Origin: Haliotis rufescens
Lineage: Eukaryota
DNA: 64,000 bases
Assembly: GCF_023055435.1 (NCBI RefSeq)
Contig: NW_025964372.1
Location: 38,564,001 to 38,628,000 of the forward strand
Direction: 5' to 3'
Shown here in pieces: positions 751 to 26,654 of the stretch. The translations under genes and the position numbers were made by a program. The notes under the pieces were generated by a model that ran no database searches, was not told the origin of the DNA, and was given only the letters and a program-made list of their open reading frames with translations. Each line of letters opens with the position of its first letter. Position 1 is the stretch's first letter.

Positions 751-1055
751 GGTAACCACGGCCTGTAGAAAATATAGTAAAGCGTCCATGGTTGACTTGG
801 GGTAAAGGCAAGTGGTGGTGTAGCGACTTGAATTAAATGTGTTTGATGCCAATTTGTGTGAGCATAATCCCCTAAATGTATTCTCGTACTAATCGAAAAC
901 AAAAATATACAGAAGGTCCTGTTTTGCAAAGAATGGGTTGCCTAAAATGTAGCAGCTTTGGTTGGCTCTACATATGAGGATCTGGAACCGAATTGAGCAT
1001 GATTCATTTCTTGATAAATAATCATATTATAGTGTGATCTTATCTCGATTCCATC

Positions 1056-1593
1056 CAGTGTTCATGTAGACTTTACATTTAGTGTTCATGTAGTCTTTTC
1101 ATTAAGTGTTCATGTAGTCTTTACATTTAGTGTTCATGTAGTCTTTTCATTTAGTTTTCATGTAGTCTTTACATTTAGTGTTCATGTAGTCTTTTCATTA
1201 AGTGTTCATGTAGTCTTTACATTTAGTGTTCATGTAGTCTTTTCATTTAGTGTTCATGTAGTCTTTTCATTTAGTGTTCATGTAGTCTTTTCATTTAGTG
1301 TTCACGTAGTCTTTTCATTTAGTGTTTACGTAGTCTTTTCATTTAGTGTTCATGTAGTCTTTTCATTTAGTGTTCGTGTAGTCTTTTCATTTAGTGTTCA
1401 TGCAGTCTTTACATTTAGTGTTTTTGTAGTCTTTTCATTTAGTGTTCATGTAGTCTTTTCATTTAGTGTTCGTGTAGTCTTTTCATTTCGTGTTCATGCA
1501 GTCTTTACATTTAGTGTTTTTGTAGTCTTTTCATTTAGTGTTCATGTTGTCTTTTCATTTAGTGGTCACGTAGTTTTTTCAATTGGAGTTCAT
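1056..1593. repeat. 24-bp minisatellite (GTAGTCTTTTCATTTAGTGTTCAT)n, ~22 units
   Basis: Direct tandem repeats. Confidence 0.95.
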
Positions 1594-4141: not shown

Positions 4142-4437
4142 TCAATAGACGTAATCCTGATTGGGAACAACATCTGTATATTATCAGATTGCTTTAGAGC
4201 TTTGACAACGCTATCTATTTTATGACAAATCATCTCAAACGATAAGGAAAGATATATCGAATTAATGGAGCGTTACTGTATAAGAAATGAGTGTAATTAG
4301 TGAAATTATGAAGAATACTGAATAGTATTTATGAAACAGAAAGGTCATCTTACGAACGCGATATCCAACATACACAAGAGCGGATTTAAGGAATCGGATC
4401 CCACTCTAACCCTGAAGTTAAACATGTTTGTTTGTTT

Positions 4438-4557
4438 GAGTCTGGACCAGACAATCTCGTGATTGACACCATGAGCATCGATCCACGTAAATGGGATACA
4501 ATTCCAAGTCACCGAGCGTGACCACGCAATCCATTTATTCGCCTCGGACGACAAGCT
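4438..4557 (-). mobile_element. Fragment of another interspersed SINE-like repeat (copies ~17452, ~31000, ~49803; + strand relics ~1975, ~38125)
   Basis: GAGTCTGGACCAGACAATC...GAGCATCGATC...GACAAGC recurs in the units; the head of the same family is at 54310-54350. Confidence 0.5.
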
Positions 4558-5251
4558 TATGTTGCTGGGGACGTATATTCTTTACCGGAATCCCCAGGGG
4601 TAGTTAAACATGGGAACCACCCACCGTATTAATACCTCTCCCTGGGGACAAAAGATTCAGAAAAGTCTGAGAATTTCAATTTCACATGTATGTAGGTACG
4701 TTCAAAAGATTTCATTATGATATTAGATCTAGACCAAGGTAAGTATTCATTTCACTCAATACTTCACGGGCTTGTGGAGGAACTTTGGGGACGGAGCAAT
4801 GGAGTAAAATGTGCCCTACTGAAGCAATGTGTGGAGTACATGGCCATAAGTACTTTACATGCTGCACGGAAAATATTGTTCTGTCATCTCTGAGCGGTCA
4901 TTGGTTATGCTTTCCCTCTTGCTGGAAGGAGGTCGTGTCTTTATTGGTCGGTTTGTAATAACAACTACATCCCTAAAAGCGGTCGTATGTATTCACGGTA
5001 AAGGGAGGAGCGCAGTGTATACAAACAAGTGATGTTTTGACGAAGGATGAAATGACTTATTGTAATGACGAAGTCTCCATCTCTGTCCAAGTGCATGATG
5101 ACACCGTTCTTGTCTTGAGTCATCTTCTCGATGAAGAGTTCGTTTCGTAGAGGCTCTGAAACAAGTAGGAAAGTAGGAAAGATGTTTATAAACATAATGC
5201 AGATACACAGATGAATTGTTCTTGACCATAAGCGCGAGATGCCCAACTCTC

Positions 5252-7437
5252 GGTTATGGGCCGGAAGAGCGGAACCTAGCCATAATCAACTCTAAAATCT
5301 CTTCGCTTTCGTGAAGCTACAGTAAGACTGGTCACGCTACAGTAAACACGGGATATTGCTGTACCGGGACTCTCAAATTACAAGAAAAACACAGAAATGC
5401 GTATACCGTATTTACAGTAGTAATTTATTAGATGCTGAAGTATAGTATAGTTGCACAAAAGTACTTTACATTTAACAAATTTAATAACTCTAATACTTTA
5501 ATATTTCATAGATGTACATTATAATTTCTACAAAAACAACAATTACTTATATCTTAAAATATGGTTAATACATAAATACATTCTATAATAAATTTGTCAT
5601 TCACTCCAAGTGGATCAGGTCACCAACGTGATCTGTGTACTCAACGAATTGGCATCCTGCCACCCACGTTGTCGTGACGTAGTCCATGAAGGCTGCGACC
5701 CTGCGACCCGCGGGACTGTCAGCGATGGCTTGGAGCCAGATGTCGTCGACTTGTCCAAGGGAAGCAGAGGCAAGGCTGCAGCTCTTCTCACCAGTCGTCG
5801 CACTTCATCATTGTTCTTGTAGTCCGTAGCCAGACCTTCCTTCTGTACTCGACGCCAAATGCACTGGGTGAAGTGAAAATAACAGCCCCTGATCAAAGTG
5901 TTTGGAAAGGCACTCCGTACGGCATTGTGGGCCTCGATTTCAAAGTCTAACTGGAAAGTTCTTGGATTGAAGTAACAATTCTGCTGTTGAGCCATTAGAC
6001 GTAAATGTTCAAATGTCCTGGTGTACGTATTTTCGGACTTGTTCCGGAGCAGACAGTACACAAGCGGGAACATGTGGCCTTAGAATTCAGCATGCAATGT
6101 GTAGATCTGCTCAAACAGTCGTGGAGCCGAGGAGAAGGTGCCGTCACCAAACACTTCATCTGCTGCACACAGGTGCTCAATATTTGTTGTTGTGCTTGCT
6201 TGTGGGAGTGATGTTGCCATATGGGCTGTAGGGTGCTTGGATGAGGGTCGTGTTGTGGTGGTCATTTTGAGGTTTGTTTTGCATGCGGGGGTTGATGTTT
6301 TGGCTATGTGAGATGTGGGAGGGTTCGTGGTTGGTTGAGTGGCTGCTTGTGTGTGTGAGGTGGGTGCGGTTTCTCGGTAGGGGCCCCAGACAGAGCTGTC
6401 GGTTATTGGTGTGGTGTTTGTTTGTGGGATGGTGTTTGGGTGTGGTGTAGGGAGGAGTGGTTTAGATGCAGGTGTAGCAAATTTTCGTGTTTGGATTTAA
6501 GCCGTGTCTATGTTTATGTGTTTGTTGGCCTGCTGGGTGAGTGTGTTTCTGTATGGGCATTGGTTTGAAAGTGAAGTGTGGTGGGTGGATTTGCAGTGGA
6601 TGCACCAGGGTGTGCATGTGCCTGGGCAGTCTGTTTGTGCGCATTTTTTACATTTAGTTTTACGGTATGTGCATTGGGAGGCAGTGTGGTTGTATTTGAG
6701 GCACTTTGAACATTGCTTAACCTGCTTTATATAGGGTTTGACTTCTAAGTTGGTGTGGGCTCCGAAGGATATGTGTTTGGGGGCTTCAGGGAATTTAGCT
6801 GTCTTTTTGAAGTTGATTATGACAATGGAGGTTGGGACCGTTTTTCCGTTTCTAGTTGAGGTTATTCTACGCGTGCTAGTGATTAGGGGTTGAGGGTTTT
6901 GGTCTTGGTTTATGTTAGCTTCTAGAGAGTATAATTGTAAGTCCTCAGTTGTTTCCCTTGGGTTAACCCTAATTACGCCTCGTGTATATTGTTGCCAATT
7001 AGGTGTTTGTTTGATTACCGTGACGTGGAATATTTGAGTTATTTTATTTGCTGCGTTCTAAGATTCTCGGTTAGGGAAGATTATCTGGTATCCTTTGTTG
7101 GCTTTTTTAATATTGTTGTAATTTATTTTTTCTCTTTTAAACCAAAGTCCTAAACATAGATAAATAAGTTGCAATCTTTATATATACCATCAAATACATA
7201 CTGTATGTATTCTTAAGAAACGACTCTCCTCTCCTCTCCTCTCCTCTCCTGTCCTCTCCTCTCCTCTCCTCTCCTCTCCTCTGTTTGAACAGCACGGGCG
7301 CTAATCTAAACTATGGTTATCCGGTGTTTTTATAGCCATTACTGTTTTCTCGCTTTCGTGGGACAAATACCCCAACTTGGGTTTTCGCTTTACTGATACT
7401 AGGGAAAATTGGATTTTCGCTAACCCGGCACGACACC
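5252..7437 (-). mobile_element. Defective Mutator-like (MULE) DNA transposon containing a LINE ORF1 fragment
   Basis: Transposase remnants at ~5615-6200 (FGDGTF, FPLVYCLL, DFE, GCYFHFTQ, FMDYVTTTW) carry an in-frame TAA at 6080-6082 and a frameshift near 5750. The element is flanked by the direct repeat CAACTCTC (extends to CCCAACTCTC) and has weak terminal inverted similarity GGT..G.GCCGG...AGCG.AA. The empty site is visible at ~31945. Confidence 0.85.
6200..7150 (-). mobile_element. Degenerate non-LTR retrotransposon ORF1 (gag-like, I/Jockey-group type) fragment; second copy ~19215-20150
   Basis: Minus-strand translation gives TRGVIRV...RRITSTRNGKTVPTSIVIINF...VKPYIKQVKQCSKCLKYNHTASQC...CKKC...CIHCKSTHH, i.e. 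CCHC zinc knuckles, with stops and frameshifts. Confidence 0.7.
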
Positions 7438-7913
7438 CAACTCTCTTCCGTTAGCGAAGTGGGAAGCGGGACAATCTCATTAACCTTGGATCTTTGGTCT
7501 CACTACCGCTAAACGAAATACGTGATGTCAGCCCACTTTTTGGTTATGTCAGAATGACCTTTCACGCGACCAATCAGAAAGTCGCTTACCAAATCGGCCA
7601 AGTGATTNNNNNNNNNNNNNNNNNNNNNNNNNNNNNNNNNNNNNNNNNNNNNNNNNNNNNNNNNNNNNNNNNNNNNNNNNNNNNNNNNNNNNNNNNNNNN
7701 NNNNNNNNNNNNNNNNNNNNNNNNNNNNNNNNNNNNNNNNNNNNNNNNNNNNNNNNNNNNNNNNNNNNNNNNNNNNNNNNNNNNGTACAAAAATCTTGAA
7801 CGCAACGTTGAACCCCATTTTACCTCGTCTAGAACTGTTAAAAATTGACCCAGTGATTGACGGAGTTCCGTTTAATATGAACCGAAGCGCACATAAAATA
7901 TACACCTGGATAG

Positions 7914-8009: not shown

Positions 8010-9214
8010 GTAAGGGGTAAACTGTTCACACAACTGTACTGAACAATGGTTTGTCTGGTGTAGAATGTGTAGCAGTATTTACCAGATTTAGTAGTTTACA
8101 CTCAGTTGTTGACAACACAGCCACGTGCACACCCTGTTTGATATACAACTGCAGATATTGTAACAGTCATTTGTCAGTCAGTCAGTATCACATAGATCAG
8201 GTGATACTTAACACAGCTGCCGACTGTCCTGTCATTACGCGTGTGACTGTTTGTGACTGAAGCCATATTGAAGTGGAAGCAAACCATGTGTGGAATCCAC
8301 AGAGTAAATCGTTACAAGGGTTTTGTGTTAGACTCTAGAGTTGTGTCCCTTTGATCATCTTGTGCAAGTCAAAACATGCACCTGTCTTCATACGTTCATT
8401 GTGACTTGAGTTGTAAACATTTATTGTTAGTGGCTTGGTCGTTGTCTCGCATATTTGTGCTTTAAACACTGAATAAGGTTGACTGTTAAAGGGCGGAAAT
8501 GTGATTTTGTTCGATTGAAATAGTGAAGTATGACACTTGAGTATGGGTAACTGGACAGTTGTTGGTGTCATCTGAACATATCCAGATGTCGACCCTCACG
8601 CTTGCAAGGGCATCTTCATCGAGGGTAAGGAAAACAATTATAGGTGACCTGCACTGTGAACACCTTAACTTGCCAATTTGACGGTTGTGGTTCTAGTTGT
8701 GTACATCTAGGCGACTATNNNNNNNNNNNNNNNNNNNNNNNNNNNNNNNNNNNNNNNNNNNNNNNNNNNNNNNNNNNNNNNNNNNNNNNNNNNNNNNNNN
8801 NNNNNNNNNNNNNNNNNNNNNNNNNNNNNNNNNNNNNNNNNNNNNNNNNTTGTGTGACTGGCTGAACAAAACGATACTCGAAGTTAACGATGTGCATTAT
8901 CTTTACAGAGTTGTGTCCCTTTGATATTCATGCTCACCATCTGCACTACAGGCATCTGATTCACTTTATATGTAAGACACTTGAGCTTTGTACCTGTGTT
9001 AAATGTGTGTCAAAAGTCGTCTTTGGGTATGCATTTTGAATAGGGTTGACTGCAAAGTTGCGTGAAATATAATTGTATAGACTAAGATAGTGATGTTTGA
9101 CACTTTACTGGATAGTTGTAGATTTCATCCAACATAAGGTATCAGAAAGTGATATCTGACCTACGAAGAAACTACCTCAATTTGCATTTATTGCTCATTT
9201 TCAGATAGGCGTGT

Positions 9215-9283
<69 letters not shown>

Positions 9284-9544
9284 AATTGTTGTCTGGCAAT
9301 GCTCAAAAGTGATTTATAAGTGCATTTGCAAAGGGCAAATCAGTGATGAACATTATGTGAATAGACTTCTGAAAGCACCATGCAAAGTGTAGCTGATTCT
9401 GTAGGTTTTGATTTAAAAGAAGTGAATTTTAATACTCATGCAGTTATTATCGAATAATGGAATGGTTATGTATATTTAAGGTTTAAATCATCTACTCACG
9501 GCTTTTGTCTGTATATTCCTGTATTGTCAGTTCCAAGCTTCGCA

Positions 9545-11395
9545 ATGTCCGGTGAGAGCCGAAAATCTGGATATGTGGACAACTGGCAGTCAGGGAAGAC
9601 TGTCACAGAGTGTAATCTGCGCATGCTCGACACGGAAGACTTCTGTGACGTCACTTTCCTGTTGGGGTCAGAGAAACAGGTGGTCCGAGCTCACCGCTAC
9701 GTTCTTGTCAGTCGCAGCTGTGTCTTCCATGCCATGCTCTGTGGCCCCCTGGCGGAGAAAGGGGAGGTAACCATTCCTGACATTGCGGCAGACATCTTCA
9801 AAGAGTTCCTGAGGTTCGATTAATCTTTTAATTTTACAAAACAATCAAATACCCAATGACAAAACACCTTCCATTTGTCTTTGCGTGATATATACCAATG
9901 TCTCAAAGTCACTTGGCAGACAGAAATGTATTCCTCCACAATGAGGGTCCATTTAATATTTCCTTGAAGTGTTCAGTCATCCTGCGTCATCAAGGTAGCC
10001 TAGTTGTATCTGTGATACATGACTACCCGACCAAGCACGTCTGAAGTAAGAATATCATGTAGGTTAACATATAAAGGTTACTATAAACGTCCTCACTACA
10101 GAATAACCAGTATGAATTATCCCACGAAACAGATTCCATTGGGTGTAAAAGGCAAAGTGGCGATGAACATGTTGTAAATGGATCACTGAAATGTCTGAAC
10201 AAGTGACATATATAAAAGACAACCTAACCTGATTGTGCTATTTGGATTTGAATTAAGTTGAAAAATATCATGAAACCTTGGTTGTAATTAATCGTAACAT
10301 GGTAATCTTACACACTGTTGTAGGTATGTGTACACAGAAAAGACTACTATCAACACTGAAACAGTCACAGGACTGATGTACACCTCCAGGAAGTATTCTC
10401 TAGATGCATTGTACGATCTGTGTGTAACGTTCCTGGAGACGTCCCTGTCAGAAGACAATGTCTGCCAGATCCTGGAGGAGTGTCATGGTTACGAGGAGCT
10501 AGACCTGGAACAGAAGGCCCTGAAGATCCTGACTGAAGGAGGGGAGAGTGTCATCAAATCTCCAGGATTTGTTAGTCTTTGTCCTGACTGTCTGGAAAAG
10601 TTCCTTAAATCAAACACTCTGAACCTGAAAGAGTCAGACATATTTGAAGCAGTCGTATCGTGGACAAAGGAGCGGTGCAGGAAGGAAGGTGTGAGTGACG
10701 CGCCTGAGAACAGACGGAGACTCCTAGGAGATATGAGGTATCAGATCCGGTTTACCAGCATCCCCCTGGAGATCCTGGTGAAAGTTGTTGGCCGATCTGG
10801 TGTGCTGACAAACAGTGAGAGAGTTCAGATAATTGACAGATCTGTTGACTCGACTGTTGATATTTCTCCATTTACAACTGTACAGAGAATGAAATCAGGC
10901 GTTGCTCAGATACAAGAGTCCTATATTTGTAAACATGTAAGCAGATTTCCATATATGTCAGAATGTTGGTATTCTGCTAATACACGCTTCAGGCATGCTA
11001 TCTCGTTTTCTGTCACTCACAGCATTCACCTGAAAGGATGTCAGCTCTTCCGTGAACAGAGTAATGAAGATATCCTACTGATTATATGGGTGTATGACCA
11101 AAATAACACAGTGGTTGCTGCACCCTTACGGAACACTTGGCTGACTCTTCACAGGAACCAAAAGATGACTGATGTCCTATTTCCCGAGTCTGTACTACTG
11201 CAGCCAAGCAAAACCTACACTCTGTGTGTGGACCTAGCTCCCGGTAAGTATTACAGCGGTGTTCATGGAAAGAAGACTGTAACCAGTGATGGAGTACAGT
11301 TCACTTTCTCACACTCCCCACTTGACACTGCAGGAACATCACCACAGTGTGGAAACATACCTGGCTTGATATTCAGCATCCCAACAGAGATGTAG
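9545..11395 (+). CDS. BTB-BACK-PHR protein, BTBD1/2/3/6-like, copy G1; join(9545..9813,10324..11395), 446 aa
   Basis: BTB motifs NWQ..., DVTFLLG, AHRYVLVSRSCVFHAM. AG|GT donor after 9813 and TAG| acceptor before 10324 rebuild FLRYVYT. BACK region (ESDIFEAVVSW, IRF) and PHR motifs (SRF..W, AISF, TYT..V, GTS...GNIPGLIF). The reading frame is open. Confidence 0.92.
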
Positions 11396-12709
11396 TGTGT
11401 GAATTCATGGTGAAACTGTCAATTCTTCCACTCAACCATGGGATGAGATAATGACCACAACATTCAGCTAACATCCTGTGTGCTGTTTGTACAGGATTTG
11501 ATGTGAATACTTTACTGAAATTTGAATTGGATGTACTTTTAAACAACACTGACAGCTTGTGCATTGTATGTTACGTTCACATGTAACATCATTTCCGTTT
11601 CATAGTTTCCATAGATTGACTGTCTGCCTGTGTGATAATGTGATTTACATATCAAATAATGAAATATTGTACTACACACTGGAGTGTTTTAATGTTTCGA
11701 TTGCAGCTTAACACATCTTCTTACATCAAGTGACGCGTGCATGTGTAAGCGTTACTGTTATGAATGTACAGAGATGTTGCTCCAAGCTGTGTACAGTGAT
11801 TAGCCCCTGCCTACAGAAACAAATACCTTGTTGGGTTGTGTTTCGCCGTTGTCAGACATTCTTTATATATAGACTCACAACACCAGATACACTTCCAAAT
11901 TTCATTTTAATCATAATATTTCAATTACTAAATACAGTTAAGTTAGCGAGAAAATAAGTCAATTCTTAACATTAAGTTCACTGATGGCCTATACTCGGTT
12001 CTCTGCAAACACGGGTTCGTCTATTCAAATAAATATAACTTTAGCCAAAAACATATTGGGAATTAGTCAGGCAGGGTAGGGTGACTACGGCAGTCTGTAA
12101 TTTGTTGTCTCCAATCTAGGACCTTTACAACTTAAACTGTAACGGATTTGTTTTCTTCTCTCATGATCAGTGTACACACACACACGCACGCACGCACACA
12201 CGCACACACACACACACACGCATGCACGCACGCACCCCAAACAAAACAAACAAACTGTCGTCATTGTTCCTGGCGTTGATAAAATACTTGGCAATTTATG
12301 AAGTCAATGTCTTGCTGAACTATGTACCAATCCAGATATGCAGAAAATTATCAGATTGTAGAGCTTTCTTTTTGATATTGCATCTTTAAATTATTGATTG
12401 TACCTACAACTCACATCAAAAGGAGGGACCATGGTGATAGAAAGCCAGCAACTCATTAATGTGATTACTACATCAATATTGACATTAAGTATGGGACATT
12501 GCACCTGTAATTCTGTTTGTGTAACCTGAACATATTATTTGAATCACCTGCGCTAGAAACATACTTTCCGTCACTACGCAAGCGAGCTACATTCATGTGA
12601 TGTTCAATATATCTCAATAAAAACTGCGGATATTATTGTTATTATTGTTAATAACCATGTCTAACCAGGTTGGCGTCTCTGCGCAGAGGGTATGGTGGCT
12701 TAGCATTGG

Positions 12710-12734
12710 TTGTTATTGTTGATCCATCGTCCAG

Positions 12735-12766
<32 letters not shown>

Positions 12767-12791
12767 CTGGACGATGGATCAACAATAACAA
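12710..12791. repeat. Perfect 82-bp palindrome with (AT)n centre (72-bp copy at 44913-44984)
   Basis: TTGTTATTGTTGATCCATCGTCCAGTT-(AT)n-AACTGGACGATGGATCAACAATAACAA. Confidence 0.95.
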
Positions 12792-14069
12792 TATTCGTTA
12801 TATATACAGTCTTTAACGAATAAGGTCAATAAAAAAGTAAAGAGACATGATAAAAAAATTAGTAAACGTTAATTGATTTTAATTAACTTGAGGAAACTAC
12901 TCATACCTTCAGAAATTTGTATTTGACCATCATTTACACACGCTACAAGATGCCCTTTTAAAAATACATACATAATTTAGTATCTAAAGAGGACCAGCCC
13001 ATACGATATTCTTATGATGGAAAAACTGCCAGTATTCGAAACAGCTCTTCTTAATATTTGAGAGTAGATAGGCCCTAAGTTTATGCTTGTATGGTAACCA
13101 TGAACACACAATGCCATTTAGAAAGTGGTCAAATGTAACAAATGTTACATTTGGGATAACTATTTCTGAGTAAAGTACAGATTCTCGTACATTTTCTGAG
13201 CGCCGTCCTGGATTCGAACCCATACTTACAGAGTGAGTACGAGATTCTGTACTTTACTCAGAAAGTGTGATCCCAAATATAACACTTGTTACTTTTAACC
13301 ACTTTCTAAATTGCATTGTGCTTTCATAGCTTTCGGCCATGGGAGCTGTGCCAATTTACACACGTCAGAGGGGTAGAAAAAGTACGTGATCTAGACTACC
13401 AGTTATTGGATTTTCATTTTGTGGAAGCCTCTGTGGCTGAGTGGGTTAGATCGCTGACTATGTGTGCTGGCGATTAGGTGCCTCACTCTTGCAGTGTGGG
13501 TTCGAATCCCGGAGTATTGTCGAATTATAGATTATTATTTTAATTGTTCGCAACTAGTTTTACTTCTAAACTGTGATAGTCTAGTTATTATACTGTCCGT
13601 CGTTAACAGAGTTTATTCATCTAAGTTTAAATTGCATTAATGTTCTCGTCACTATATGGCTGAAATAAAAATGACGTAAAATTTTAACTCACTCACTCGA
13701 ATTTCGGACGGGACTCAACCCCCAAACGTACAGGAATCTGTACTTAACTCAGAAAGTGTTACATGGTAACCACGGCCTGTAGAAAATATAGTAAAGCGTC
13801 CATGGTTGACTTGGGGTAAAGGCAAGTGGTGGTGTAGCGACTTGAATTAAATGTGTTTGATGCCAATTTGTGTGAGCATAATCCCCTAAATGTATTCTCG
13901 TACTAATCGAAAACAAAAATATACAGAAGGTCCTGTTTTGCAAAGAATGGGTTGCCTAAAATGTAGCAGCTTTGGTTGGCTCTACATATGAGGATCTGGA
14001 ACCGAATTGAGCATGATTCATTTCTTGATAAATAATCATATTATAGTGTGATCTTATCTCGATTCCATC

Positions 14070-14607
14070 CAGTGTTCATGTAGACTTTACATTTAGTGTT
14101 CATGTAGTCTTTTCATTAAGTGTTCATGTAGTCTTTACATTTAGTGTTCATGTAGTCTTTTCATTTAGTTTTCATGTAGTCTTTACATTTAGTGTTCATG
14201 TAGTCTTTTCATTAAGTGTTCATGTAGTCTTTACATTTAGTGTTCATGTAGTCTTTTCATTTAGTGTTCATGTAGTCTTTTCATTTAGTGTTCATGTAGT
14301 CTTTTCATTTAGTGTTCACGTAGTCTTTTCATTTAGTGTTTACGTAGTCTTTTCATTTAGTGTTCATGTAGTCTTTTCATTTAGTGTTCGTGTAGTCTTT
14401 TCATTTAGTGTTCATGCAGTCTTTACATTTAGTGTTTTTGTAGTCTTTTCATTTAGTGTTCATGTAGTCTTTTCATTTAGTGTTCGTGTAGTCTTTTCAT
14501 TTCGTGTTCATGCAGTCTTTACATTTAGTGTTTTTGTAGTCTTTTCATTTAGTGTTCATGTTGTCTTTTCATTTAGTGGTCACGTAGTTTTTTCAATTGG
14601 AGTTCAT
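14070..14607. repeat. 24-bp minisatellite, ~22 units
   Basis: Duplicate of 1056-1593. Confidence 0.95.
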
Positions 14608-16451
14608 ATCACCACAAGTTGACATTTATATAGTTCGTGTCGTATCGGGGTATTGAGTGAATGCGTCACATGGTTGCTATGAGACAGGAGTGTGGACGTG
14701 AGACGCAGCAAAACAAGAAGTGGAGAAGTATCGTCGGCTGTTACAAATGCACACGGCGCCCACAGCTTCACTTGTTGTTTTGCTGTGTGTAAATAGATGT
14801 CACGTTATTGGTCAGCTAGGGTGTTTTAGTTGAAACATTATTTATATTTCTCAATAAACCGGAGTGATAGTTTTATATCAGTCATGTAGTATACAACCCA
14901 AATGACGTGAACAAAAACATTCTATCTTTGTAGAGAGGAAAGAGACACATCTTTCAGTGTCCCCTGCTATTTCTTGAATGACTATCTGTGGCGACTAATG
15001 GGATCGGGTATTCAGACTCGCTGACGTGGTTGTTTCATGTCTTCGTATCCCAATGCATCACTGCAGAAAATGATTGCGGGAGCGGATGTATGTTGTTTGA
15101 CCAGCCGACACTATTCCAGTTTTATCACTGCCTGTAAATAATTGAATCTTAGAAAGGCATACAAGAGGTTTAAAACAACGATCCACCCGTTAGGAGTAGG
15201 ATCCCAATCAATCAGCCAGGAAACTACCCGACCCCTGTCGATCAGATCTTTCCATTGAGTGAGTGAGTGAGTGAGTGAGTGAGTATGGTTTGACGCCGCT
15301 TTAAGCAATTTTGCAGCCATATAAAGGCACCCATGTTGGGCATCGAACCCGGGTTTAAGGCGTGACGAGCGAACTCCTTAACCACTAGGCTATCCCATCG
15401 CTACTAGATCCGACATTTGTGGAGAACTCGTTGAGTTTGGTTGGTGGCTTTTTATGGTTCATTATTTACATAGCTGGCAACAAACAACGTTTGTTTTTTA
15501 AGAATATAAGGGGTCACAACATGCCGTGTCGTCGGTGCAGTGTCCTGTGCAGAGTTGCGTCCCTTAGGCTAACCGGAAACCTATGATTGTAAGTTCGAAT
15601 CTCATATTCAACCTGATTGGGCGTTTTAGCACCATATTCGTTCTCATTGGTTTCACCAACCTCGCGGACATGTGCTATGTGGATTTAAATCTCGTTTTTG
15701 TTGTTTCTGTCAGGTACAATTGATAATTTCATCAAAATCTAAAAGGTGAAAGGCAGAGGACAATTCACCCATGTCCCAATAAAAACTGTTAGGCGTGTAA
15801 CATATGGACTGTGTAACAATAGGATGGATACAAAACGAGAAGCGCTGGAAAAAATAGAGGTTGAAATGTTTAATGAAGCGTCACATGATATATGATTTAC
15901 ATCACACTTTTGGAATAAAACATCTGTAGTAGTAGACATCAGCTCGACTGCTCAGTCATGGTAGTCGTAGTAGTGAGTGAGTATGGTTTTACGCCGCTTT
16001 AAGCAATAGTTCAGCAATATCACGGCGGAGTAGCAGTAGTTGTAGCAGTAGCAGTATTGGTATTGACAGTAGCAGTAGAAGCAGGCAGTACAATAAGTAG
16101 CAGTAGGTGTAGTAGTAGCAGTATTTGGTATTGATAGTAGTAGCAGCAGAGAGCACTAGTAGTAGCAGTAGCAGTAGTAGTGAACAGAACAGTAGCAGTA
16201 GCTGTAGTAGTAGCAGAAGCTGTAGCAGTGACGGCGATAGTGATAGGATTCGTATGAAGGGAAGTTGCCTGAAGGAGTACTATATGACTGGGTCTGACTA
16301 TAACACATCTATAACGTACTTTCACATTTAGTCTGTACACATGAAACAGAGCGAACATGACTATAAGTATAACAACATTGACTTGAAAAGTGTGAGGCAG
16401 GTGAAGAGGTAGTTCATCAGGTATGAAGCTGGCACGTGACTGAAGAGGAAG

Positions 16452-18169
16452 TCAGCGTTTTCTCAGTCTCTGTGTCTCCGTCGCGCCATCCTTGGTCTGA
16501 GCCTGGGAACAAAAACAAGCACAGAGTAAGGCCAAGTCGTCTGAGTCACCGCAATTCGCTGTGCAGGGTTGTGTCCCTTGACGTGCCGAACTTATGATCG
16601 TGGGTTCGAATCCCAGACTCGCCTTCATAATGACGCTTGGTTTGCCGCTTAGAAGTCTTTCACAAGTAATCTCGAAGTCTGGGGCTCCCATGGACCATAT
16701 AAGGCATCATTTTGCAACACTGCTGAACCGGATATACAAATACCTTGTTTAAATATTTAGTTGAGTAAAAACAATTCTTGAGCTAGCTAAGTTCTCAAAA
16801 TAGTGGCTTTATTAAATAGTGTTGCGAACATTAGGCAATAAGTTCTTTACAAGTTGGCATTACATTGATGCGTGGAGCTCAATAGAAGTTGTGATTGACA
16901 CTGCTTTTAACAGTATTACAGTTATATCACGGCGTGTCAGCTCAATGTTGGAGGAAAGTCCGAAGTGATGCAGGTCTGTGACGTTTAGCACTTCGGTGAC
17001 ATCCACGAGAACGGGTATGATGCTGACAAACCTAGATACATAATCGGGGCGAACCGAGATTCGAACCCACAATCATAGGTTTCTGGAGTGCCCAAGGAAC
17101 GCAACTCTGCACTGCGAATCGCGGCGCCTTAGACGACTGGGCCACCCATGCCCCCTCAATAGACGTAATCCTGATTGGGAACAACATCTGTATATTATCA
17201 GATTGCTTTAGAGCTTTGACAACGCTATCTATTTTATGACAAATCATCTCAAACGATAAGGAAAGATATATCGAATTAATGGAGCGTTACTGTATAAGAA
17301 ATGAGTGTAATTGGTGAAATTATGAAGAATACTGAATAGTATTTATGAAACAGAAAGGTCATCTTAGGAACGCGATATCCAACATACACAAGAGCGGATT
17401 TAAGGAATCGGATCCCACTCCAACCCTGAAGTTAAACATGTTTGTTTGTTTGAGTCTGGACCAGACAATCTCGTGATTGACACCATGAGCATCGATCCAC
17501 GTAAATGGGATACAATTCCAAGTCACCGAGCGTGACCACGCAATCCATTTATTCGCCTCGGACGACAAGCTTATGTTGCTGGGGACGTATATTCTTTACC
17601 GGAATCCCCAGGGGTAGTTAAACATGGGAACCACCCACCGTATTAATACCTCTCCCTGGGGACAAAAGATTCAGAAAAGTCTGAGAATTTCAATTTCACA
17701 TGTATGTAGGTACGTTCAAAAGATTTCATTATGATATTAGATCTAGACCAAGGTAAGTATTCATTTCACTCAATACTTCACGGGCTTGTGGAGGAACTTT
17801 GGGGACGGAGCAATGGAGTAAAATGTGCCCTACTGAAGCAATGTGTGGAGTACATGGCCATAAGTACTTTACATGCTGCACGGAAAATATTGTTCTGTCA
17901 TCTCTGAGCGGTCATTGGTTATGCTTTCCCTCTTGCTGGAAGGAGGTCGTGTCTTTATTGGTCGGTTTGTAATAACAACTACATCCCTAAAAGCGGTCGT
18001 ATGTATTCACGGTAAAGGGAGGAGCGCAGTGTATACAAACAAGTGATGTTTTGACGAAGGATGAAATGACTTATTGTAATGACGAAGTCTCCATCTCTAT
18101 CCAAGTGCATGATGACACCGTTCTTGTCTTGAGTCATCTTCTCGATGAAGAGTTCGTTTCGTAGAGGCT
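16452..18169 (-). pseudogene. Orphan FABP-A exons 3 (18075..18169, disabled) and 4 (16452..16502, intact)
   Basis: Same lesions as the 3438-5155 copy. Confidence 0.85.
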
Positions 18170-18265
18170 CTGAAACAAGTAGGAAAGTAGGAAAGATGTT
18201 TATAAACATAATGCAGATACACAGATGAATTGTTCTTGACCATAAGCGCGAGATGCCCAACTCTC

Positions 18266-20430
18266 GGTTATGGGCCGGAAGAGCGGAACCTAGCCATAAT
18301 CAACTCTAAAATCTCTTCGCTTTCGTGAAGCTACAGTAAGACTGGTCACGCTACAGTAAACACGGGATATTGCTGTACCAGGACTCTCAAATTACAAGAA
18401 AAACACAGAAATGCGTATACCGTATTTACAGTAGTAATTTATTAGATGCTGAAGTATAGTATAGTTGCACAAAAGTACTTTACATTTAACAAATTTAATA
18501 ACTCTAATACTTTAATATTTCATAGATGTACATTATACTTTCTACAAAAACAACAATTACTTATATCTTAAAATATGGTTAATACATAAATACATTCTAT
18601 AATAAATTTGTCATTCACTCCAAGTGGATCAGGTCACCAACGTGATCTGTGTACTCAACGAATTGGCATCCTGCCACCCACGTTGTCGTGACGTAGTCCA
18701 TGAAGGCTGCGACCCTGCGACCCGCGGGACTGTCAGCGATGGCTTGGAGCCAGATGTCGTCGACTTGTCCAAGGGAAGCAGAGGCAAGGCTGCAGCTCTT
18801 CTCACCAGTCGTCGCACTTCATCATTGTTCTTGTAGTCCGTAGCCAGACCTTCCTTCTGTACTCGACGCCAAATGCACTGGGTGAAGTGAAAATAACAGC
18901 CCCTGATCAAAGTGTTTGGAAAGGCACTCCGTACGGCATTGTGGGCCTCGATTTCAAAGTCTAACTGGAAAGTTCTTGGATTGAAGTAACAATTCTGCTG
19001 TTGAGCCATTAGACGTAAATGTTCAAATGTCCTGGTGTACGTATTTTCGGACTTGTTCGGGAGCAGACAGTACACAAGCGGGAACATGTGGCCTTAGAAT
19101 TCAGCATGCAATGTGTAGATCTGCTCAAACAGTCGTGGAGCCGAGGAGAAGGTGCCGTCACCAAACACTTCATCTGCTGCACAAAGGTGCTCAATATTTG
19201 TTGTTGTGCTTGCTTATGGGAGAGTGTTGTTGCCATATGGGCTGTAGGGTGCTTGGATGAGGGTCGTGTTGTGGTGGTCATTTTGAGGTTTGTTTTGCAT
19301 GCGGGGGTTGATGTTTTGGCTATGTGAGATGTGGGAGGGTTCGTGGTTGGTTGAATGGCTGCTTGTGTGTGTGAGGTGGGTGCGGTTTCTCGGTAGGGGC
19401 CCCAGACAGAGCTGTCGGTTATTAGTGTGGTGTTTGTTTGTGGGATGGTGTTTGGGTGTGGTGTAGGGAGGAGTGGTTTAGATGCAGGTGTAGCAAATTT
19501 TCGTGTTTGGATTTAAGCCGTGTCTATGTGTATGTGTTTGTTGGCCTGCTGGGTGAGTGTGTGTCTGTTTGGGCATTGGTTTGAAAGTGAAGTGTGTTGG
19601 GTAGATTTGCAGTGGATGCACCAGGGTGTGCATGTGCCTGGGCAGTCTGTTTGTGCGCATTTTTTACATTTAGTTTTACGGTATGTGCATTGGGAGGCAG
19701 TGTGGTTGTATTTGAGGCACTTTGAACATTGCTTAACCTGCTTTATATAGGGTTTGACTTCTATACTTCACATATGTGTTTGGGGGCTTCAGGGAATTTA
19801 GCTGTCTTTTTGAAGTTGATTATGACAATGGAGGTTGGGACCGTTTTTCCGTTTCTAGTTGAGGTTATTCTACGCGTGCTAGTGATTAGGGGTTGAGGGT
19901 TTTGGTCTTGGTTTATGTTAGCTTCTAGAGAGAATAATTGTAAGTCCTCAATTGTTTCCCTTGGGTTAACCCTAATTACGCCTCGTGTATATTGTTGCCA
20001 ATTAGGTGTTTGTTTGATTACCGTGACGTGGAATATTTGAGTTATTTTATTTGCTGCGTTCTAAGATTCTCGGTTAGGGAAGATTATCTGGTATCCTTTG
20101 TTGGCTTTTTTAATATTGTTGTAATTTATTTTTTCTCTTTTAAACCAAAGTCCTAAACATAGATAAATAAGTTGCAATCTTTATATATACCATCAAATAC
20201 ATACTGTATGTATTCTTAAGAAACGACTCTCCTCTCCTCTCCTCTCCTGTCCTCTCCTCTCCTCTCCTCTCCTCTGTTTGAACAGCACGGGCGCTAATCT
20301 AAACTACAGTAATCCGGTGTTTTTATAGCCATTACTGTTTTCTCGCTTTCGTGGGACAAATACCCCAACTTGGGTTTTCGCTTTACTGAAACTAGGGAAA
20401 ATTGGATTTTCGCTAACCCGGCACGACACC
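18266..20430 (-). mobile_element. Second copy of the defective MULE (duplicated with the unit)
   Basis: Same insertion site, TSD and transposase lesions as 5252-7437. Confidence 0.85.
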
Positions 20431-21704
20431 CAACTCTCTTCCGTTAGCGAAGTGGGAAGCGGGACAATCTCATTAACCTTGGATCTTTGGTCTCACTACC
20501 GCTAAACGAAATATGTGATGTCAGCCCACTTTTTGGTTATGTCAGAATGACCTTTCACGCGACCAATCAGAAAGTCGCTTACCAGATCGGCCAAGTGATT
20601 NNNNNNNNNNNNNNNNNNNNNNNNNNNNNNNNNNNNNNNNNNNNNNNNNNNNNNNNNNNNNNNNNNNNNNNNNNNNNNNNNNNNNNNNNNNNNNNNNNNN
20701 NNNNNNNNNNNNNNNNNNNNNNNNNNNNNNNNNNNNNNNNNNNNNNNNNNNNNNNNNNNNNNNNNNNNNNNNNNNNNNNAAAAATCTTGAACGCAACGTT
20801 GAACCCCATTTCACCTCGTCTTGAACTGTAAAAAATGACCTAGTGATTGACGAAGTTCCGTTTAATATGAACCGAAGCGCACATAAAATATACACCTGAA
20901 TAGCGGAAGTCTTGTCAAAACGAAACAAGGATTACAGTTGTCTGACAGGTGAAGGACGCTCTCTCGCTCGCTGTGTTCAAACCATCGGCACCAACTCAGG
21001 TAAGGGGTAAACTGTTCACACAACTGTACTGAACAATGGTTGTATGTGTAGCAGTATTTACCAGATTTAGTAGTTTACACTCAGTTGTTGACAACACAGC
21101 CACACCCTGTTAGATATACAACTGCAGATATTGTAACAGTCATTTGTCAGTCAGTCAGTATCACATAGATCAGGTGATACTTAACACAGCTGCCGACTGT
21201 CCCGTGATTACGCGTGTGACTGTTTGTGACTGAAGCCATATTGAAGTGGAAGTAAACCATGTGTGGATTCCACAGAGTAAATCGTTACAAGGAGTTTGTG
21301 TTAGACTCTAGAGTTGTGTCCCTTTGATCATCTTGTGCCAAAAGATACCCGAAGTAAACGATGATTACAGAGTTGTGTCCCTTTGATATTCATGCTCACC
21401 ATCTGCACTTCAGGCATCTGATTCACTTTATATGTTAGACACTTGAGGTTTGTACATTTTAATGTTTAAAAGTGTGTCAGAAGTCGTCTTTGGGTATGCT
21501 TTTTTTAATAGGGTTGACTGCAAAGTTGCGTGAAATATAATTGTATAGACTAAGAAAGTGAAGTTTGACACGTTACTGGATAGTTGTAGATTCCATCCAA
21601 CATAAGGTATGAGAAACTGATATCTGACCTACGAAGAAACTACCACAATTTGCATTTATCGCTCATTTTCAGATAGGCGATTTTCACATACATACATACA
21701 TACA

Positions 21705-22057: not shown

Positions 22058-23889
22058 ATGTCCTGTGAGAGCCGAGAATCTGGATATGTGGACAACTGGC
22101 AGTCAGGGAAGACTGTCACAGAGTGTAATCTGCGTATGCTCGACACGGAAGACTTCTGTGACGTCACTTTCCTGTTGGGGTCAGAGAAACAGGTGGTCCG
22201 AGCTCACCGCTACGTTCTTGTCAGTCGCAGCTGTGTCTTCCATGCAATGTTCTGTGGCCCCCTGGCGGAGAAAGGGGAGGTAACCATTCCTGACATTGCG
22301 GCAGACATCTTCAAAGAGTTCCTGAGGTTCGATTAATCTTTTAATTTTACAAAACAATCAAATACCCAATGACAAAACACCTTCCATTTTTCTTTGCGTG
22401 ATATATACCAATGTCTCGAAGTCACTTGGCAGACAGAAATGTATTCCTCCACAATGAGGGTCAATTTAATATTTCCTTGAAGTGTTCAGTCATCCTGCTT
22501 CATCAAGGTAGCCTAGTTGTATCTGTGATACATGACTAAGAAGTAAGAATATCATGTAGGTTAACATATAAAGGTTACTATAAACGTCCTCACTACAGAA
22601 TAACCAGTATGAATTATCCCATGAAACAGATTCCATTGGGTGTAAAAGTGCCGATGAAAATGTTGTAAATGGATCACTGAAATGTCTGAACAAGTGACAA
22701 ATGTAAAAGACAACCTAACCTGATTGTGCTATTTGGATTTGAATTAAGTTGAAACCTTGGTTTTAATTAATCGTAACATTGTATTCCTACACACTGTTGT
22801 AGGTATGTGTACACAGACAAGACTACTATCAACACTGAAACAGTCACAGGACTGATGTACACCTCCAGGAAGTATTCTCTAGATGCATTGTACGATCTGT
22901 GTGTAACGTTCCTGGAGACGTCCCTGTCAGAAGATAATGCCTGCCAGATCCTGGAGCAGTGTCATGGTTACGGGGAGCTAGACCTGGAACAGAAGGCCCT
23001 GAAGATCCTGACTGAAGGAGGGGAGAGTGTCATCAAATCTCCAGGATTTGTAGGTCTTTGTCCTGACTGTCTGGAAAAGTTCCTTAAATCAAACACTCTG
23101 AACCTGAAAGAGTCCGACATATTTGAAGCAGTCGTGTCGTGGACAAAGGAGCGGTGCAGGAAGGAAGGTGTGAGTGACACGCCAGAAAACAGACGGAGAC
23201 TCCTAGGAGATATGAGGTATGAGATCCGGTTTACCAGCATCCCCCTGGAGTTCCTGGTGAAAGTTGTTGGCCGATCTGGTGTGCTGACAAACAGTGAGAG
23301 AGTTCAGATAATTGACAGATCTGTTGACTCGACTGTTGATATTTCTCCATTTACAACTGTACAGAGAATGAAATCAGGCGTTGCTCAGATACAAGAGTCC
23401 AATATTTGCAAACATGTAAGCAGATTTCCAAACATAACAGAGTGCCATTGTTATTTTCAAGGCAGCAGGCATGCTATCTCGTTTTCTGTCACTCACAGCA
23501 TTCACCTGAAAGGATGTCAGCTCTTCCGTGAAGAGATTAATGAAGACATCCTACTGAGTATATGGGTGTATGACCAAAATAACACAGTGGTTGCTGCACC
23601 CTTAAGGAACACTTTGAAGTCTCTTCACAGGAACCAAGAGATGACTGATGTCCTATTTCCCGAGTCTGTACTACTGCAGCCAAGCACAACCTACACTGTG
23701 TGTGTGGACCTAACTTCCGGGACCTATTACAGCGGGGTTTTTGGAAAGAAGACTGTTACCAGTAATGGAGTACAGTTCACATTCTCACACTCCCTACTGG
23801 ACACTGCAGGAACATCACCAGAGACAGGAAACATACCTGGCTTGATATTCAGCATCCCAAAAGAGATGAAGTGTGTGAATTCATGGTGA
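22058..23889 (+). CDS. BTB-BACK-PHR protein copy G2; join(22058..22326,22803..23889), 451 aa
   Basis: Same exon structure, splice sites and motifs as G1; intact frame. Confidence 0.92.
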
Positions 23890-24897: not shown

Positions 24898-26654
24898 AAC
24901 TGTAACGGATTTGTTTTCTTCTCCATTGATCAGTGTATACACACACGCATGCATGCACGCACACACGCACACAAAACAAATCAAACAATCTGTCGTCATT
25001 GTTCGTGGCGTTGATAAAATATTTGGCAATATATGAAGTCAATGCCTTGCTGAACTTTGTACCAATCCACATATGCAGAAAATTATCATATTATAGAACT
25101 TTCTTTTGCAATATATGAATTCAATGCCTTGCTGAACTATGTCCCAATCCAGATATGCAGAAAATTATCAGATTATAGAACTTTCTTTTTGATATTGCAC
25201 CTTTAAATTATTGATTTTACCTACAGCTCACATAAAAAGGAGGGACCATGGTGATAGAAAGCCAGCAACCCATTATTGTGATTACTACATCAATAGTGAC
25301 ATTAAGTATGGGACATTGCACCTGTAATTCTGTTTGTGTAACCTGAACATATTATTTGAATCACCTGCGCTAGAAACATACTTTCTGTCACTACGCAAGC
25401 GAACTACATTCATGTGTTATTCAATAAATCTCAATAAAAACTGCGGATATTATTGTTATTATTGTTAATAACCATGTCTAACCAGGTTGGCGTCTCTGCG
25501 CAGAGGGTATGGTGGCTTAGCATTGGTTGTTGTTGTTAATACATCGTCCAGATTTATTGTGCCGTCCCTCATCTTTTTAATATATATTTTCGTTAGATAT
25601 AACGTCTTTAATGAATAAGGTCAATAAAAAAAGTAAAGAGACATGATAAAAAAAGGAGACGTTAATTGATTTTAATTGACTTGAGAAAACTACTCATACC
25701 TTCGGAAATGAGTATTTGACCATCATTTACAAACGCTACAAGATGCCCTTTTAAAAACACATACATAATTTAGTATCTAAAGAGGACCAGCCCATACGAT
25801 ATTCTTATCATGGAAAAACTACCAGTATTCGAAACAGCTCTTCTTAATATTTGAGAGTAGATAGGCCCTAAGTTTATGCTTGTATGGTAACCATGAACAC
25901 ACAATGCCATTTAGAAAGTGGTCAAATGTAACAAATGTTATATTTGGAATAACACTTTCTGAGTAAAGTACAGATTCTCGTACATTTTCTGAGCGCCGTC
26001 CTGGATTCGAACCCACACTGATAGAGTGAGTACGAGAGTCTGTACTTTACTCACAAAGTGTGATCCCAAATATAACACTTGTTACTTTTAACAACATTCT
26101 AAATTGCATTGTGCGTTCATAGCTTTCGGCCATGGAAGCTGTGCCAATTTACACATGTCAGAGGGGTAGACAAAGTACGTGATCTAGAATACCAGTTGTC
26201 GGATTTTCATTTTGTGGAAGCCTCTGTGGCTGAGTGGGTTAGATCGCTGACTTTGTGTGCTGGCGATTAGGTGCCTCACTCTTGCAGTGTCGGTTCGAAT
26301 CCCGGATGGGACTCAGAAATTGTCATCCCAAATATAACATTTGTTACATGGTAACCATGGCCTTTAGAAAATATAGTAAAGCGTCCATTGTTGACTTAGG
26401 GTAAAGGCAAGTGGTGGTGTAGCGACTTGAATCAAATGTGTTTGATGCCAATTTGTGTGAGCATAATCCCCTAAATGTATTCTCGATCTAATGGAAAACA
26501 AACATATACAGAAGGTACTGTTTTGCAAAGAATGGGTTGCCTAAAACGTAGCAACTTCGGTTGGCTCTAAATATGCGGATCCGGAACCGAATTGAGCATG
26601 ATTCATTTCTTGATTAATAATCATATCATAGTGTGATCTTATCTCGATTCCATT

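What the first reader, a model, noticed from the sequence alone, without database searches (positions are those of the whole stretch)
10921..11760. G1 vs G4: the PHR coding sequence is far more divergent than the non-coding DNA right after the stop codon
Hand count over ~157 PHR-region codons (10922-11395 vs 43042-43515) gives ~34 differences, ~27 non-synonymous and ~7 synonymous (crude dN/dS around or above 1). The BTB exon has ~7 differences (3 N, 4 S). The ~360 nt after the stop (11396-11755 vs 43516-43875) differ at about 1 position. Coding DNA diverging more than its flank suggests selection for PHR diversity, a recombination/conversion boundary near the stop codon, or both.
Basis: seen in the sequence. 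Interest (0 to 1): 0.7.

Follow-up and report, generated by a model that had tools for sequence, protein, structure and literature searches.

The report
Abalone ubiquitin adaptors with diversifying tips
An abalone carries dozens of tandemly copied genes for a likely protein-destruction adaptor whose predicted binding loops change amino acids faster than neutral DNA, probably to catch fast-changing targets such as pathogen proteins, while the near-identical DNA after the stop codon that first drew attention is most likely a separate, ordinary swap of DNA between two copies.

Summary
The counts are exact: G1 vs G4 PHR has 34 differences in 474 nt (27 non-synonymous, 7 synonymous) and the 3' flank has 1 in 360. 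The contrast mixes two processes.

(1) Exchange. The near-identical stretch is peculiar to G1/G4 (and C, G1's 99% twin); other pairs differ by 2.8-7.2%. It starts at 11344, inside the coding sequence.

(2) Selection. G1/G4 alone is not evidence: dN/dS 1.19, p=0.83. Across six distinct copies of the array, 17% of PHR codons fit omega about 10 (2dL 55; neutral recombination simulations reach at most 24), while BTB/BACK are purifying. Three other clusters in the genome show selection in the same PHR loops, robust to silent-rate variation. Sites taken from them give omega 2.9 in this array.

PHR is not shielded from exchange: its silent divergence matches BACK's, and one public run holds a G1/G2 recombinant PHR.

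Reading: BTBD6-like, likely Cul3 adaptors diversifying one PHR face, the pattern known from nematode and plant F-box/MATH-BTB genes. I found no such report for PHR domains, and this scan had none. Targets are unknown.

The parts
9545..9813 (+). G1 coding exon 1 (BTB), ending in a phase-2 GT donor
   Evidence: Pfam BTB; spliced joint 9811>10322 GT..AG in contigs of runs X8 and X11
10324..11395 (+). G1 coding exon 2 (end of BTB, BACK, PHR, TAG); 446-aa protein, 100% identical to P0001
10922..11395 (+). G1 PHR region, codons 290-446 plus stop; 27 N and 7 S differences from G4
   Evidence: model pLDDT 93, TM 0.85 to 3NO8
10949..10990 (+). Hypervariable loop 1 (codons 299-312), with indels among copies
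11237..11266 (+). Variable loop (codons 395-404); selected sites 395, 398, 401, 404
   Evidence: 398, 400 and 401 recur in other clusters
11345..11350 (+). Codons 431-432, selected across copies; inside the G1/G4 identical tract
11344..11759 (+). G1/G4 exchange tract: 1 difference (11642) in 416 nt; last 17 codons plus 3' flank; partner 43464-43879
11760..11876 (+). Divergent patch between G1 and G4 (11 differences), followed by a block about 1-1.5% divergent to about 13700
22058..23889 (+). G2 (exons 22058-22326, 22803-23889), 451 aa
34475..36359 (+). G3 (exons 34475-34743, 35270-36359), 452 aa
41650..43515 (+). G4 (exons 41650-41918, 42444-43515), 446 aa, same sequence as P0002
43464..43879 (+). 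G4 side of the exchange tract
   Evidence: constant offset 32120

Best explanation
The window holds four of seven tandem BTB-BACK-PHR genes of an abalone whose copies have likely swapped DNA by unequal crossover or gene conversion, and whose PHR loops are likely under diversifying selection on a predicted target-binding face of a probable Cullin-3 adaptor. Shown: the array and its domains; splicing of family transcripts in guessed-RNA contigs; mosaic ancestry, with a G1/G4 near-identical tract from 11344; purifying evolution of BTB/BACK; an excess of amino-acid change at about 10-20% of PHR codons, in the same loops in four clusters. Inferred: BTB-BACK binds Cul3 as in vertebrate BTBD6. The variable loops (299-313, 333-338, 365-371, 395-404, 425-432) lie together at the end of the beta-sandwich away from BACK and form the binding face. 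Exchange shuffles these loops into new combinations, and selection keeps new amino acids there while the rest is homogenised or conserved. Most likely driver: fast-changing foreign proteins (pathogens or selfish elements) sent for ubiquitylation. Odds: exchange tract 0.9; positive selection on PHR loops 0.85; Cul3 adaptor 0.75; foreign targets 0.45.
For: Pfam BTB+BACK+PHR in all four window genes. Seven close copies and 110 matches in the genome. Six distinct copies, PHR: M0 omega 1.73, M2a vs M1a 2dL 55.4 (omega 9.7, 17% of sites), 28.4 with indel loops masked; codons 91-289: omega 0.40, 2dL 1.2. M8 vs M8a 55.3 and 28.4. With multi-nucleotide hits allowed, 40.4. 0 of 48 neutral recombination simulations reached 28.4 (maximum 24.4). 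Other clusters: S1 2dL 127, S3 75, S4 125; against a silent-rate-variation null 11.8, 25.2 and 31.1. 38 positions chosen only from S1/S3/S4 give omega 2.87 here with a free rate multiplier (2dL 6.7; with loops masked omega 4.1, 2dL 4.5), and G1/G4 has 12 N: 1 S at them. Tree-free: codon positions 1+2 carry 103 extra alleles in 312 sites vs 20 in 121 four-fold sites (p=0.002). Distal loops 1.25 vs opposite loops 0.36 extra residues per codon here, 2.61 vs 0.43 in S1, 1.29 vs 0.43 in S3, 2.39 vs 0.71 in S4. Exchange tract p=0.0002; PHI-type test p=0.0002 for exon 2 plus flank. BTB segment AM(F/L)CGPLAE aligns with AMFYGDLAE of human BTBD6.
Against: G1/G4 alone is not significant (p=0.83). On the local six copies without prior sites, a model of fast codons with omega=1 fits as well as selection (2dL 1.0; masked 0.2) and beats M2a by about 3.9 log units. 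In S1 with indel loops masked that test gives only 3.0, and four-fold sites near hot codons are more variable (5 of 6 vs 9 of 28). Whole-PHR tree-free N/S ratio 1.28, p=0.14. 24 of 48 neutral simulations exceed the nominal 5% threshold, so printed p-values are too small, and the masked value (28.4) is only just above the simulated maximum. The prior-site test was not simulated under recombination. Subfamily S2 (6 genes) shows no signal (2dL 3.3). The rest of the local PHR has omega about 1, which looks like relaxed constraint. In vertebrate Btbd6 the BTB domain, not PHR, binds the substrate Plzf (bioRxiv 10.1101/575910, passages). No target, infection data or Cul3 binding was tested. 'One face' rests on strand alternation in the model's secondary structure, not on coordinates.
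Confidence: 0.65

Rival explanations
1. Exchange plus relaxed constraint only: PHR in redundant young copies drifts neutrally, and the apparent omega above 1 comes from recombination, misaligned loops and locally high mutation or micro-conversion rates.
For: G1/G4 omega 1.19, not significant. The silent-rate null fits the local array as well. Background PHR omega about 1. Recombination inflates the test. Loop 1 has indels. 11 of the 79 loci examined had a short exon-2 frame (3 of 40; 8 of 39).
Against: S3 and S4 reject the silent-rate null (2dL 25 and 31, rate multiplier about 1.1). The same loops recur in clusters only 26-60% identical to G1. The prior-site test passes in the local array. Opposite-end surface loops do not vary. 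Four-fold sites next to local hot codons are not elevated (1 of 10 vs 6 of 37).
Confidence: 0.15
2. Positive selection is real, but the targets are the abalone's own fast-evolving proteins (for example germ-line, gamete or transposon-encoded proteins), or PHR acts in localisation or partner binding rather than substrate capture.
For: PHR of vertebrate Btbd6 is not required for Plzf binding and promotes nuclear import (passages). Nothing in my calls links these genes to infection. The 'immunity-related' label for the BTBD6 expansion in Gigantopelta is an annotation in a figure legend.
Against: Repeated birth-death clusters with a conserved cullin-side domain and a hypervariable distal domain match the pattern read as foreign-protein detection in nematodes and plants (PMC4334554 passage citing Thomas 2006). 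That link is itself called indirect (PMC1866355 passage).
Confidence: 0.17
3. The G1/G4 identical tract, or the 99% identical C/G1 unit, is an assembly artefact (collapsed or switched haplotypes).
For: Units C and G1 are 99.2% identical over 11.8 kb. G4-private letters were not seen in the laid contigs of DNA runs X2, X3 and X6, though contigs cannot show absence.
Against: The tract is only 416 nt and is flanked on both sides by G4-specific letters. Downstream similarity decays in steps (0.8-1.5%, then 2-3.5%, then 5.6-9.5%), as ancestry would. A G4-like PHR piece (43040-43140, 1 difference) is in run X9. The selection result does not depend on the tract or on C.
Confidence: 0.05

Closest known systems
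BTB-BACK-PHR (BBP) family: vertebrate BTBD1/2/3/6 (Stogios 2005, PMC1257465, passages seen; PDB 2VKP, 3NO8)
   Same: [quoted passage not shown]
   Different: That survey found 4-7 BBP genes per metazoan genome. This genome gives 110 matches to exon 2 and 75 to Pfam PHR (matches, not copy numbers, fragments included), in tandem clusters with hypervariable PHR loops.
Nematode and plant F-box and MATH-BTB adaptor expansions (Thomas 2006; not readable here; known from passages in PMC4334554 and PMC1866355)
   Same: Birth-death tandem families of cullin adaptors, with positive selection in the presumed substrate-binding domain and not in the cullin-binding domain.
   Different: The variable module here is PHR, in a mollusc, and exchange among copies is measurable in the same locus. 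No target is known.
BTBD6 family expansion in the vent snail Gigantopelta aegis (PMC7895826, section 8 read; supplements not read)
   Same: Gastropod expansion of genes annotated BTBD6, labelled immunity-related.
   Different: That section gives only a gene-count heat map; it has no selection, domain or recombination analysis. Orthology to these clusters was not tested.
Concerted evolution with diversifying selection in tandem families (e.g. MHC, plant R genes; recalled, from no call)
   Same: Mosaic copies, exchange tracts and divergence peaks at selected codons.
   Different: Here an intracellular adaptor. The silent sites of PHR show no barrier to exchange.

Membership tests
BTB-BACK-PHR (BBP) | N-terminal BTB domain | tested here: met
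   Pfam PF00651 E 1.5e-12 on G1 exon 1; BTBD6 BTB 2VKP E 5e-18
BTB-BACK-PHR (BBP) | BACK domain | tested here: met
   PF07707 E 2e-9 to 6e-9 in G1-G4
BTB-BACK-PHR (BBP) | C-terminal PHR beta-sandwich | tested here: met
   PF08005 E 1e-18 to 1e-21; model pLDDT 93.3, TM 0.85 to 3NO8. For replicate cluster S4 the four genes scanned score below the Pfam cut-off (E 0.001-0.013).
Cul3 substrate adaptor | Cul3-contact motif in BTB (phi-x-E; its role is recalled, from no call) | tested here: met
   L-A-E aligns with LAE of BTBD6 and MSE of KLHL3. L-A/V-E is in 39 of 40 loci printed; L013 has LAAE.
Cul3 substrate adaptor | Physical binding to Cul3 and ubiquitylation of a substrate | not tested
   No complex prediction was run. 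Vertebrate Btbd6 binds Cul3 through BTB-BACK (passages).
Adaptively evolving adaptor families (F-box/MATH-BTB type) | Large tandem expansion with birth-death | tested here: met
   110 matches in several clusters; 11 of 79 loci examined with a short exon-2 frame
Adaptively evolving adaptor families (F-box/MATH-BTB type) | Positive selection in the distal domain, purifying in the cullin-side domain | tested here: met
   PHR 2dL 55, 127, 75, 125 in four of five sets (S2: 3.3). BACK omega 0.38-0.61, 2dL 1.2, 15.7, 0.2, 7.7, 0.5. In the local set it is separable from silent-rate variation only with prior sites.
Adaptively evolving adaptor families (F-box/MATH-BTB type) | The variable domain binds foreign substrates | not testable with these tools
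   No target data
Gene conversion / unequal crossover tract | Pair-specific run of identity beyond chance, with conflicting ancestry along the gene | tested here: met
   Crossover and conversion cannot be told apart: 1 of 416 vs the 1.4% downstream block gives p=0.02.

The most novel reading that the evidence does not exclude
Abalone, and perhaps other gastropods, have turned the PHR domain into a variable, loop-shuffled recognition module: a repertoire of some fifty or more Cul3 adaptors that act as intracellular immune receptors, whose copy number and loop combinations differ between individuals, and whose selected sites mark the PHR ligand face.
Probability: 0.35. Interest if true: 0.78.

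Novelty: new variant of a known kind. Interest (0 to 1): 0.52.

Why it matters
What the PHR domain of BTBD1/2/3/6-type proteins binds is largely open. It was proposed as the substrate module, yet it was not needed for the Btbd6 substrate Plzf. Four abalone clusters point to the same set of loops, which gives a residue-level, testable map of the binding face and natural swap pairs (G1, G2, G4 and the X1 recombinant). If the targets are pathogen proteins, it extends the 'ubiquitin adaptors as immune receptors' idea from nematodes and plants to molluscs and gives candidates for disease-resistance variation in a farmed and threatened genus. The flank identity itself is ordinary.

Tried and rejected
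Selection from the G1/G4 pair alone: rejected (p=0.83).

Boundary at the stop codon: rejected; identity starts at 11344.

Conserved 3' UTR as the reason for flank identity: rejected; other pairs differ by 2.8-7.2% there.

PHR shielded from exchange: not supported. The PHI-type test inside PHR alone was not significant (p=0.14, 27 informative sites), so intra-PHR shuffling rests on the X1 contig and on partner switches.

Whole-domain tree-free dN/dS: not significant. Silent-rate null on the local set: not rejected without prior sites.

Sequencing runs: no holder is on record as RNA. X8, X9 and X11 are guessed RNA, so the splice joints show likely, not proven, transcripts, and of the family rather than a given copy. 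G4-private letters unseen in X2, X3 and X6 are no proof of absence.

A Cul3 complex prediction was not run; cullin C-terminal exons were located and one looks like Cul3 by recall only.

Papers: the PHR structure paper and Thomas 2006 are not held. Searches with no hits. Searches listed 4 and 1 papers, none on PHR selection by title and abstract start.

The 50%-identity library search gave only distant PHR proteins without names.

Full report
What is there. The window is G000:C594:38564001-38628000. [quoted passage not shown] It holds four two-coding-exon genes, G1-G4, each BTB-BACK-PHR by Pfam. Three more lie upstream at window positions about -26.7 kb (A), -17 kb (B) and -3.5 kb (C); C's unit is 99.2% identical to G1's over 11.8 kb. 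Exon 2 finds 110 matches in the genome and Pfam PHR finds 75; both are match counts, not copy numbers. I examined 79 loci: the 7 local genes, 33 relatives at 53-68% identity and 39 at about 26-36%. Contigs of two guessed-RNA runs (X8, X11) join 9811 to 10322 with GT..AG ends, so family members are likely spliced as predicted.

The observation. All counts hold: PHR 34 of 474, 27 N and 7 S; flank 1 of 360; exon 1 7 of 269. But PHR dN 0.079 vs dS 0.066 (omega 1.19) is not different from 1 (Fisher p=0.83). The unreported middle of the gene is also divergent: BACK part 33 of 597, intron 23 of 510, upstream 44 of 635. For this pair the outlier is the flank, not the PHR.

The flank. Over the same 360 nt, the pairs other than G1/G4, C/G4 and C/G1 differ by 2.8-7.2%. 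G1 and G4 are identical from 11344 to 11641 across 40 polymorphic sites (p=0.0002, 5000 permutations; about 0.004 for 21 pairs) and differ once more before 11760. The tract therefore begins 17 codons inside the CDS. Then come 11 differences in 11760-11876, 0.8-1.5% over 12140-13740, 2-3.5% to about 16100 and 5.6-9.5% beyond, where G1 is instead closest to B (0.8-2.5%). Informative sites switch partners along the gene. A PHI-type test is significant for exon 2 plus flank and for the flank (p=0.0002), but not for PHR alone (p=0.14) or BACK alone (p=0.08). This is a mosaic made by unequal crossover or conversion. The two cannot be separated: 1 of 416 against the 1.4% block gives p=0.02.

Is PHR shielded from exchange? 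No sign of it. Four-fold sites carry 0.170 extra alleles in PHR and 0.162 in BACK; the flank has 0.116 and the intron 0.091. In run X1 one 200-nt contig (11011-11210, depth 38.6) has G1 letters at 11057-11082, including G1's private 11082, and all six G2 letters at 11129-11162. That is a recombinant inside PHR in that sample.

Selection in the local array. I wrote GY94 site models (F3x4; naive empirical Bayes for sites) and used six copies, dropping C because its PHR equals G1's. PHR: M0 omega 1.73 (p=0.016); M2a vs M1a 2dL 55.4, with omega 9.7 at 17% of codons; 28.4 with the indel loops (300-315, 339-343) masked. Codons 91-289 (seven copies): omega 0.40, 2dL 1.2. M8 vs M8a agrees, and allowing multi-nucleotide hits leaves 40.4. 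Neutral simulations with 5-40 independent tree segments exceed the nominal threshold in 24 of 48 runs but never pass 24.4. Against this: a null with fast codons at omega 1 fits as well (2dL 1.0; masked 0.2), and the whole-domain tree-free ratio is 1.28 (p=0.14) against 0.38 for codons 91-289. A second tree-free count favours selection: codon positions 1+2 have 103 extra alleles in 312 sites against 20 in 121 four-fold sites (p=0.002), although the four-fold class is limited to otherwise invariant codons.

Replicates. Of 40 near loci, 37 had an open exon 2 (L008, L011, L036 dropped); of 39 far loci, 31. The sets were S1 (12 of 14 similar genes at 47.4-47.65 Mb; L033 and L035 left out as near-duplicates), S2 (6 genes), S3 (9 of 13 C556 loci; two short, two divergent left out) and S4 (12 of 19 loci at 45.1-45.45 Mb; six short and one duplicate left out; its PHR scores below the Pfam cut-off in the four genes scanned). 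PHR 2dL: S1 127, S2 3.3, S3 75, S4 125. BACK: 15.7, 0.2, 7.7 and 0.5, all within the range that recombination alone gave. Against the silent-rate null: S1 11.8 (3.0 with loops masked), S3 25.2 and S4 31.1, with a rate multiplier near 1.1. In S1, four-fold sites near hot codons are more variable (5 of 6 vs 9 of 28), so some hitchhiking or micro-conversion is likely. Selected positions recur in G1 numbering at 299-313, 334-336, 367-371, 395-401 and 425-432. Taking the 38 positions from S1, S3 and S4 as a fixed class gives omega 2.87 in the local array with a free rate multiplier (2dL 6.7; masked omega 4.1, 2dL 4.5). The rest of PHR sits at omega about 1, and G1/G4 shows 12 N: 1 S at the 38 against 15: 6 at the other 119. 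PHR coding DNA is more divergent than the 3' flank in 15 of 15 local pairs, 55 of 55 alignable S1 pairs (of 66), 11 of 11 S4 (of 66), 14 of 25 S3 (of 36) and 5 of 10 S2 (of 15).

Where the sites lie. The G1 PHR model (pLDDT 93.3) matches BTBD2 PHR (3NO8, TM 0.85) and both MYCBP2 PHRs. Without coordinates I assigned loops to the two ends of the sandwich by strand alternation. The assignment is an inference, was made after seeing the local and S1 sites, and counts two short strands as part of the distal end. Distal loops (57 of 153 codons) hold 15 of 16, 20 of 21, 12 of 17 and 14 of 18 selected sites, and carry 3 to 6 times more residue variants than the opposite loops in those four sets; S2 shows no such contrast.

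How it likely works. The BTB segment AM(F/L)CGPLAE aligns with human BTBD6 AMFYGDLAE and is almost invariant in 40 loci. Vertebrate Btbd6 binds Cul3 through BTB-BACK, with PHR pointing away (bioRxiv 10.1101/575910, abstract and passages). I infer a conserved cullin-docking half and a variable PHR tip that picks targets. Duplication and exchange supply and shuffle variants, and selection favours new loop residues. Foreign targets are my single best guess (0.45), by analogy only. The same preprint shows PHR is not needed for the substrate Plzf, so a partner-binding or localisation role remains open.

Against what is known. Stogios 2005 (PMC1257465, passages) found 4-7 BBP genes per metazoan genome and expected PHR to be the substrate module. 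[quoted passage not shown] A BTBD6 expansion is listed as immunity-related for Gigantopelta (PMC7895826, section 8 read; supplements not read and may bear on novelty) and is repeated in a preprint passage. BTBD2 knock-down modestly raised HIV-1 permissiveness (PMC3002306, passages). Searches for PHR selection or abalone BTB expansions found nothing relevant; most subscription papers are not covered.

Verdict. The flank is an ordinary exchange tract. The worthwhile finding is family-wide diversifying selection on PHR loops: a new variant of a known kind, interest 0.52.

Noticed in passing
window -4178..7607 vs 8850..20600 (G000:C594, upstream stretch L005-L006 and window): Unit C and unit G1 are 99.2% identical over 11.8 kb; their PHRs are identical and all 7 coding differences lie in codons 91-289. 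A very recent duplication or an uncollapsed haplotype.
   Followed up: partly
window 5615-6079 (-) and 18629-19093 (-): MULE transposase fragment (Pfam E 1e-9) present in both copies of the duplicated unit, 153 of 154 aa identical. The next ORF, 6497-7057 (-), has Cys/His motifs but no Pfam hit.
   Followed up: partly
gene A, window about -26784..-25066 (L003): The edge copy has a non-homologous intron and 5' region and no start codon at the usual place; the database protein P0004 begins at an internal Met. It looks chimeric.
   Followed up: partly
window 23869-23889 and 36339-36359: G2 and G3 read through the position of G1's stop codon and gain 5-6 C-terminal residues.
   Followed up: no
G000:C594:47.42-47.65 Mb; L021, L025, L027, L029, L034, L038: Subfamily S2, interspersed with S1, has nearly invariant PHR loops (0.09 extra residues per codon) and no selection signal; several seem to have a broken exon 1 under my reading. 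A natural control.
   Followed up: partly
L054-L058 (G000:C112:3.51-3.56 Mb): A cluster of BTB-BACK-like genes whose C-terminal domain gave no Pfam PHR hit in the one gene scanned (L054) and has long variable insertions.
   Followed up: no
window 43000-44000: G4-private letters listed were carried by none of the laid contigs of DNA runs X2, X3 and X6; X9 has a G4-like piece. A hint of presence/absence variation only.
   Followed up: partly
window 1049-1593, 14063-14607, 26648-28133, 46256-46926: A 24-bp minisatellite follows the genes in the spacers, with length varying from about 0.55 to 1.5 kb between units.
   Followed up: no
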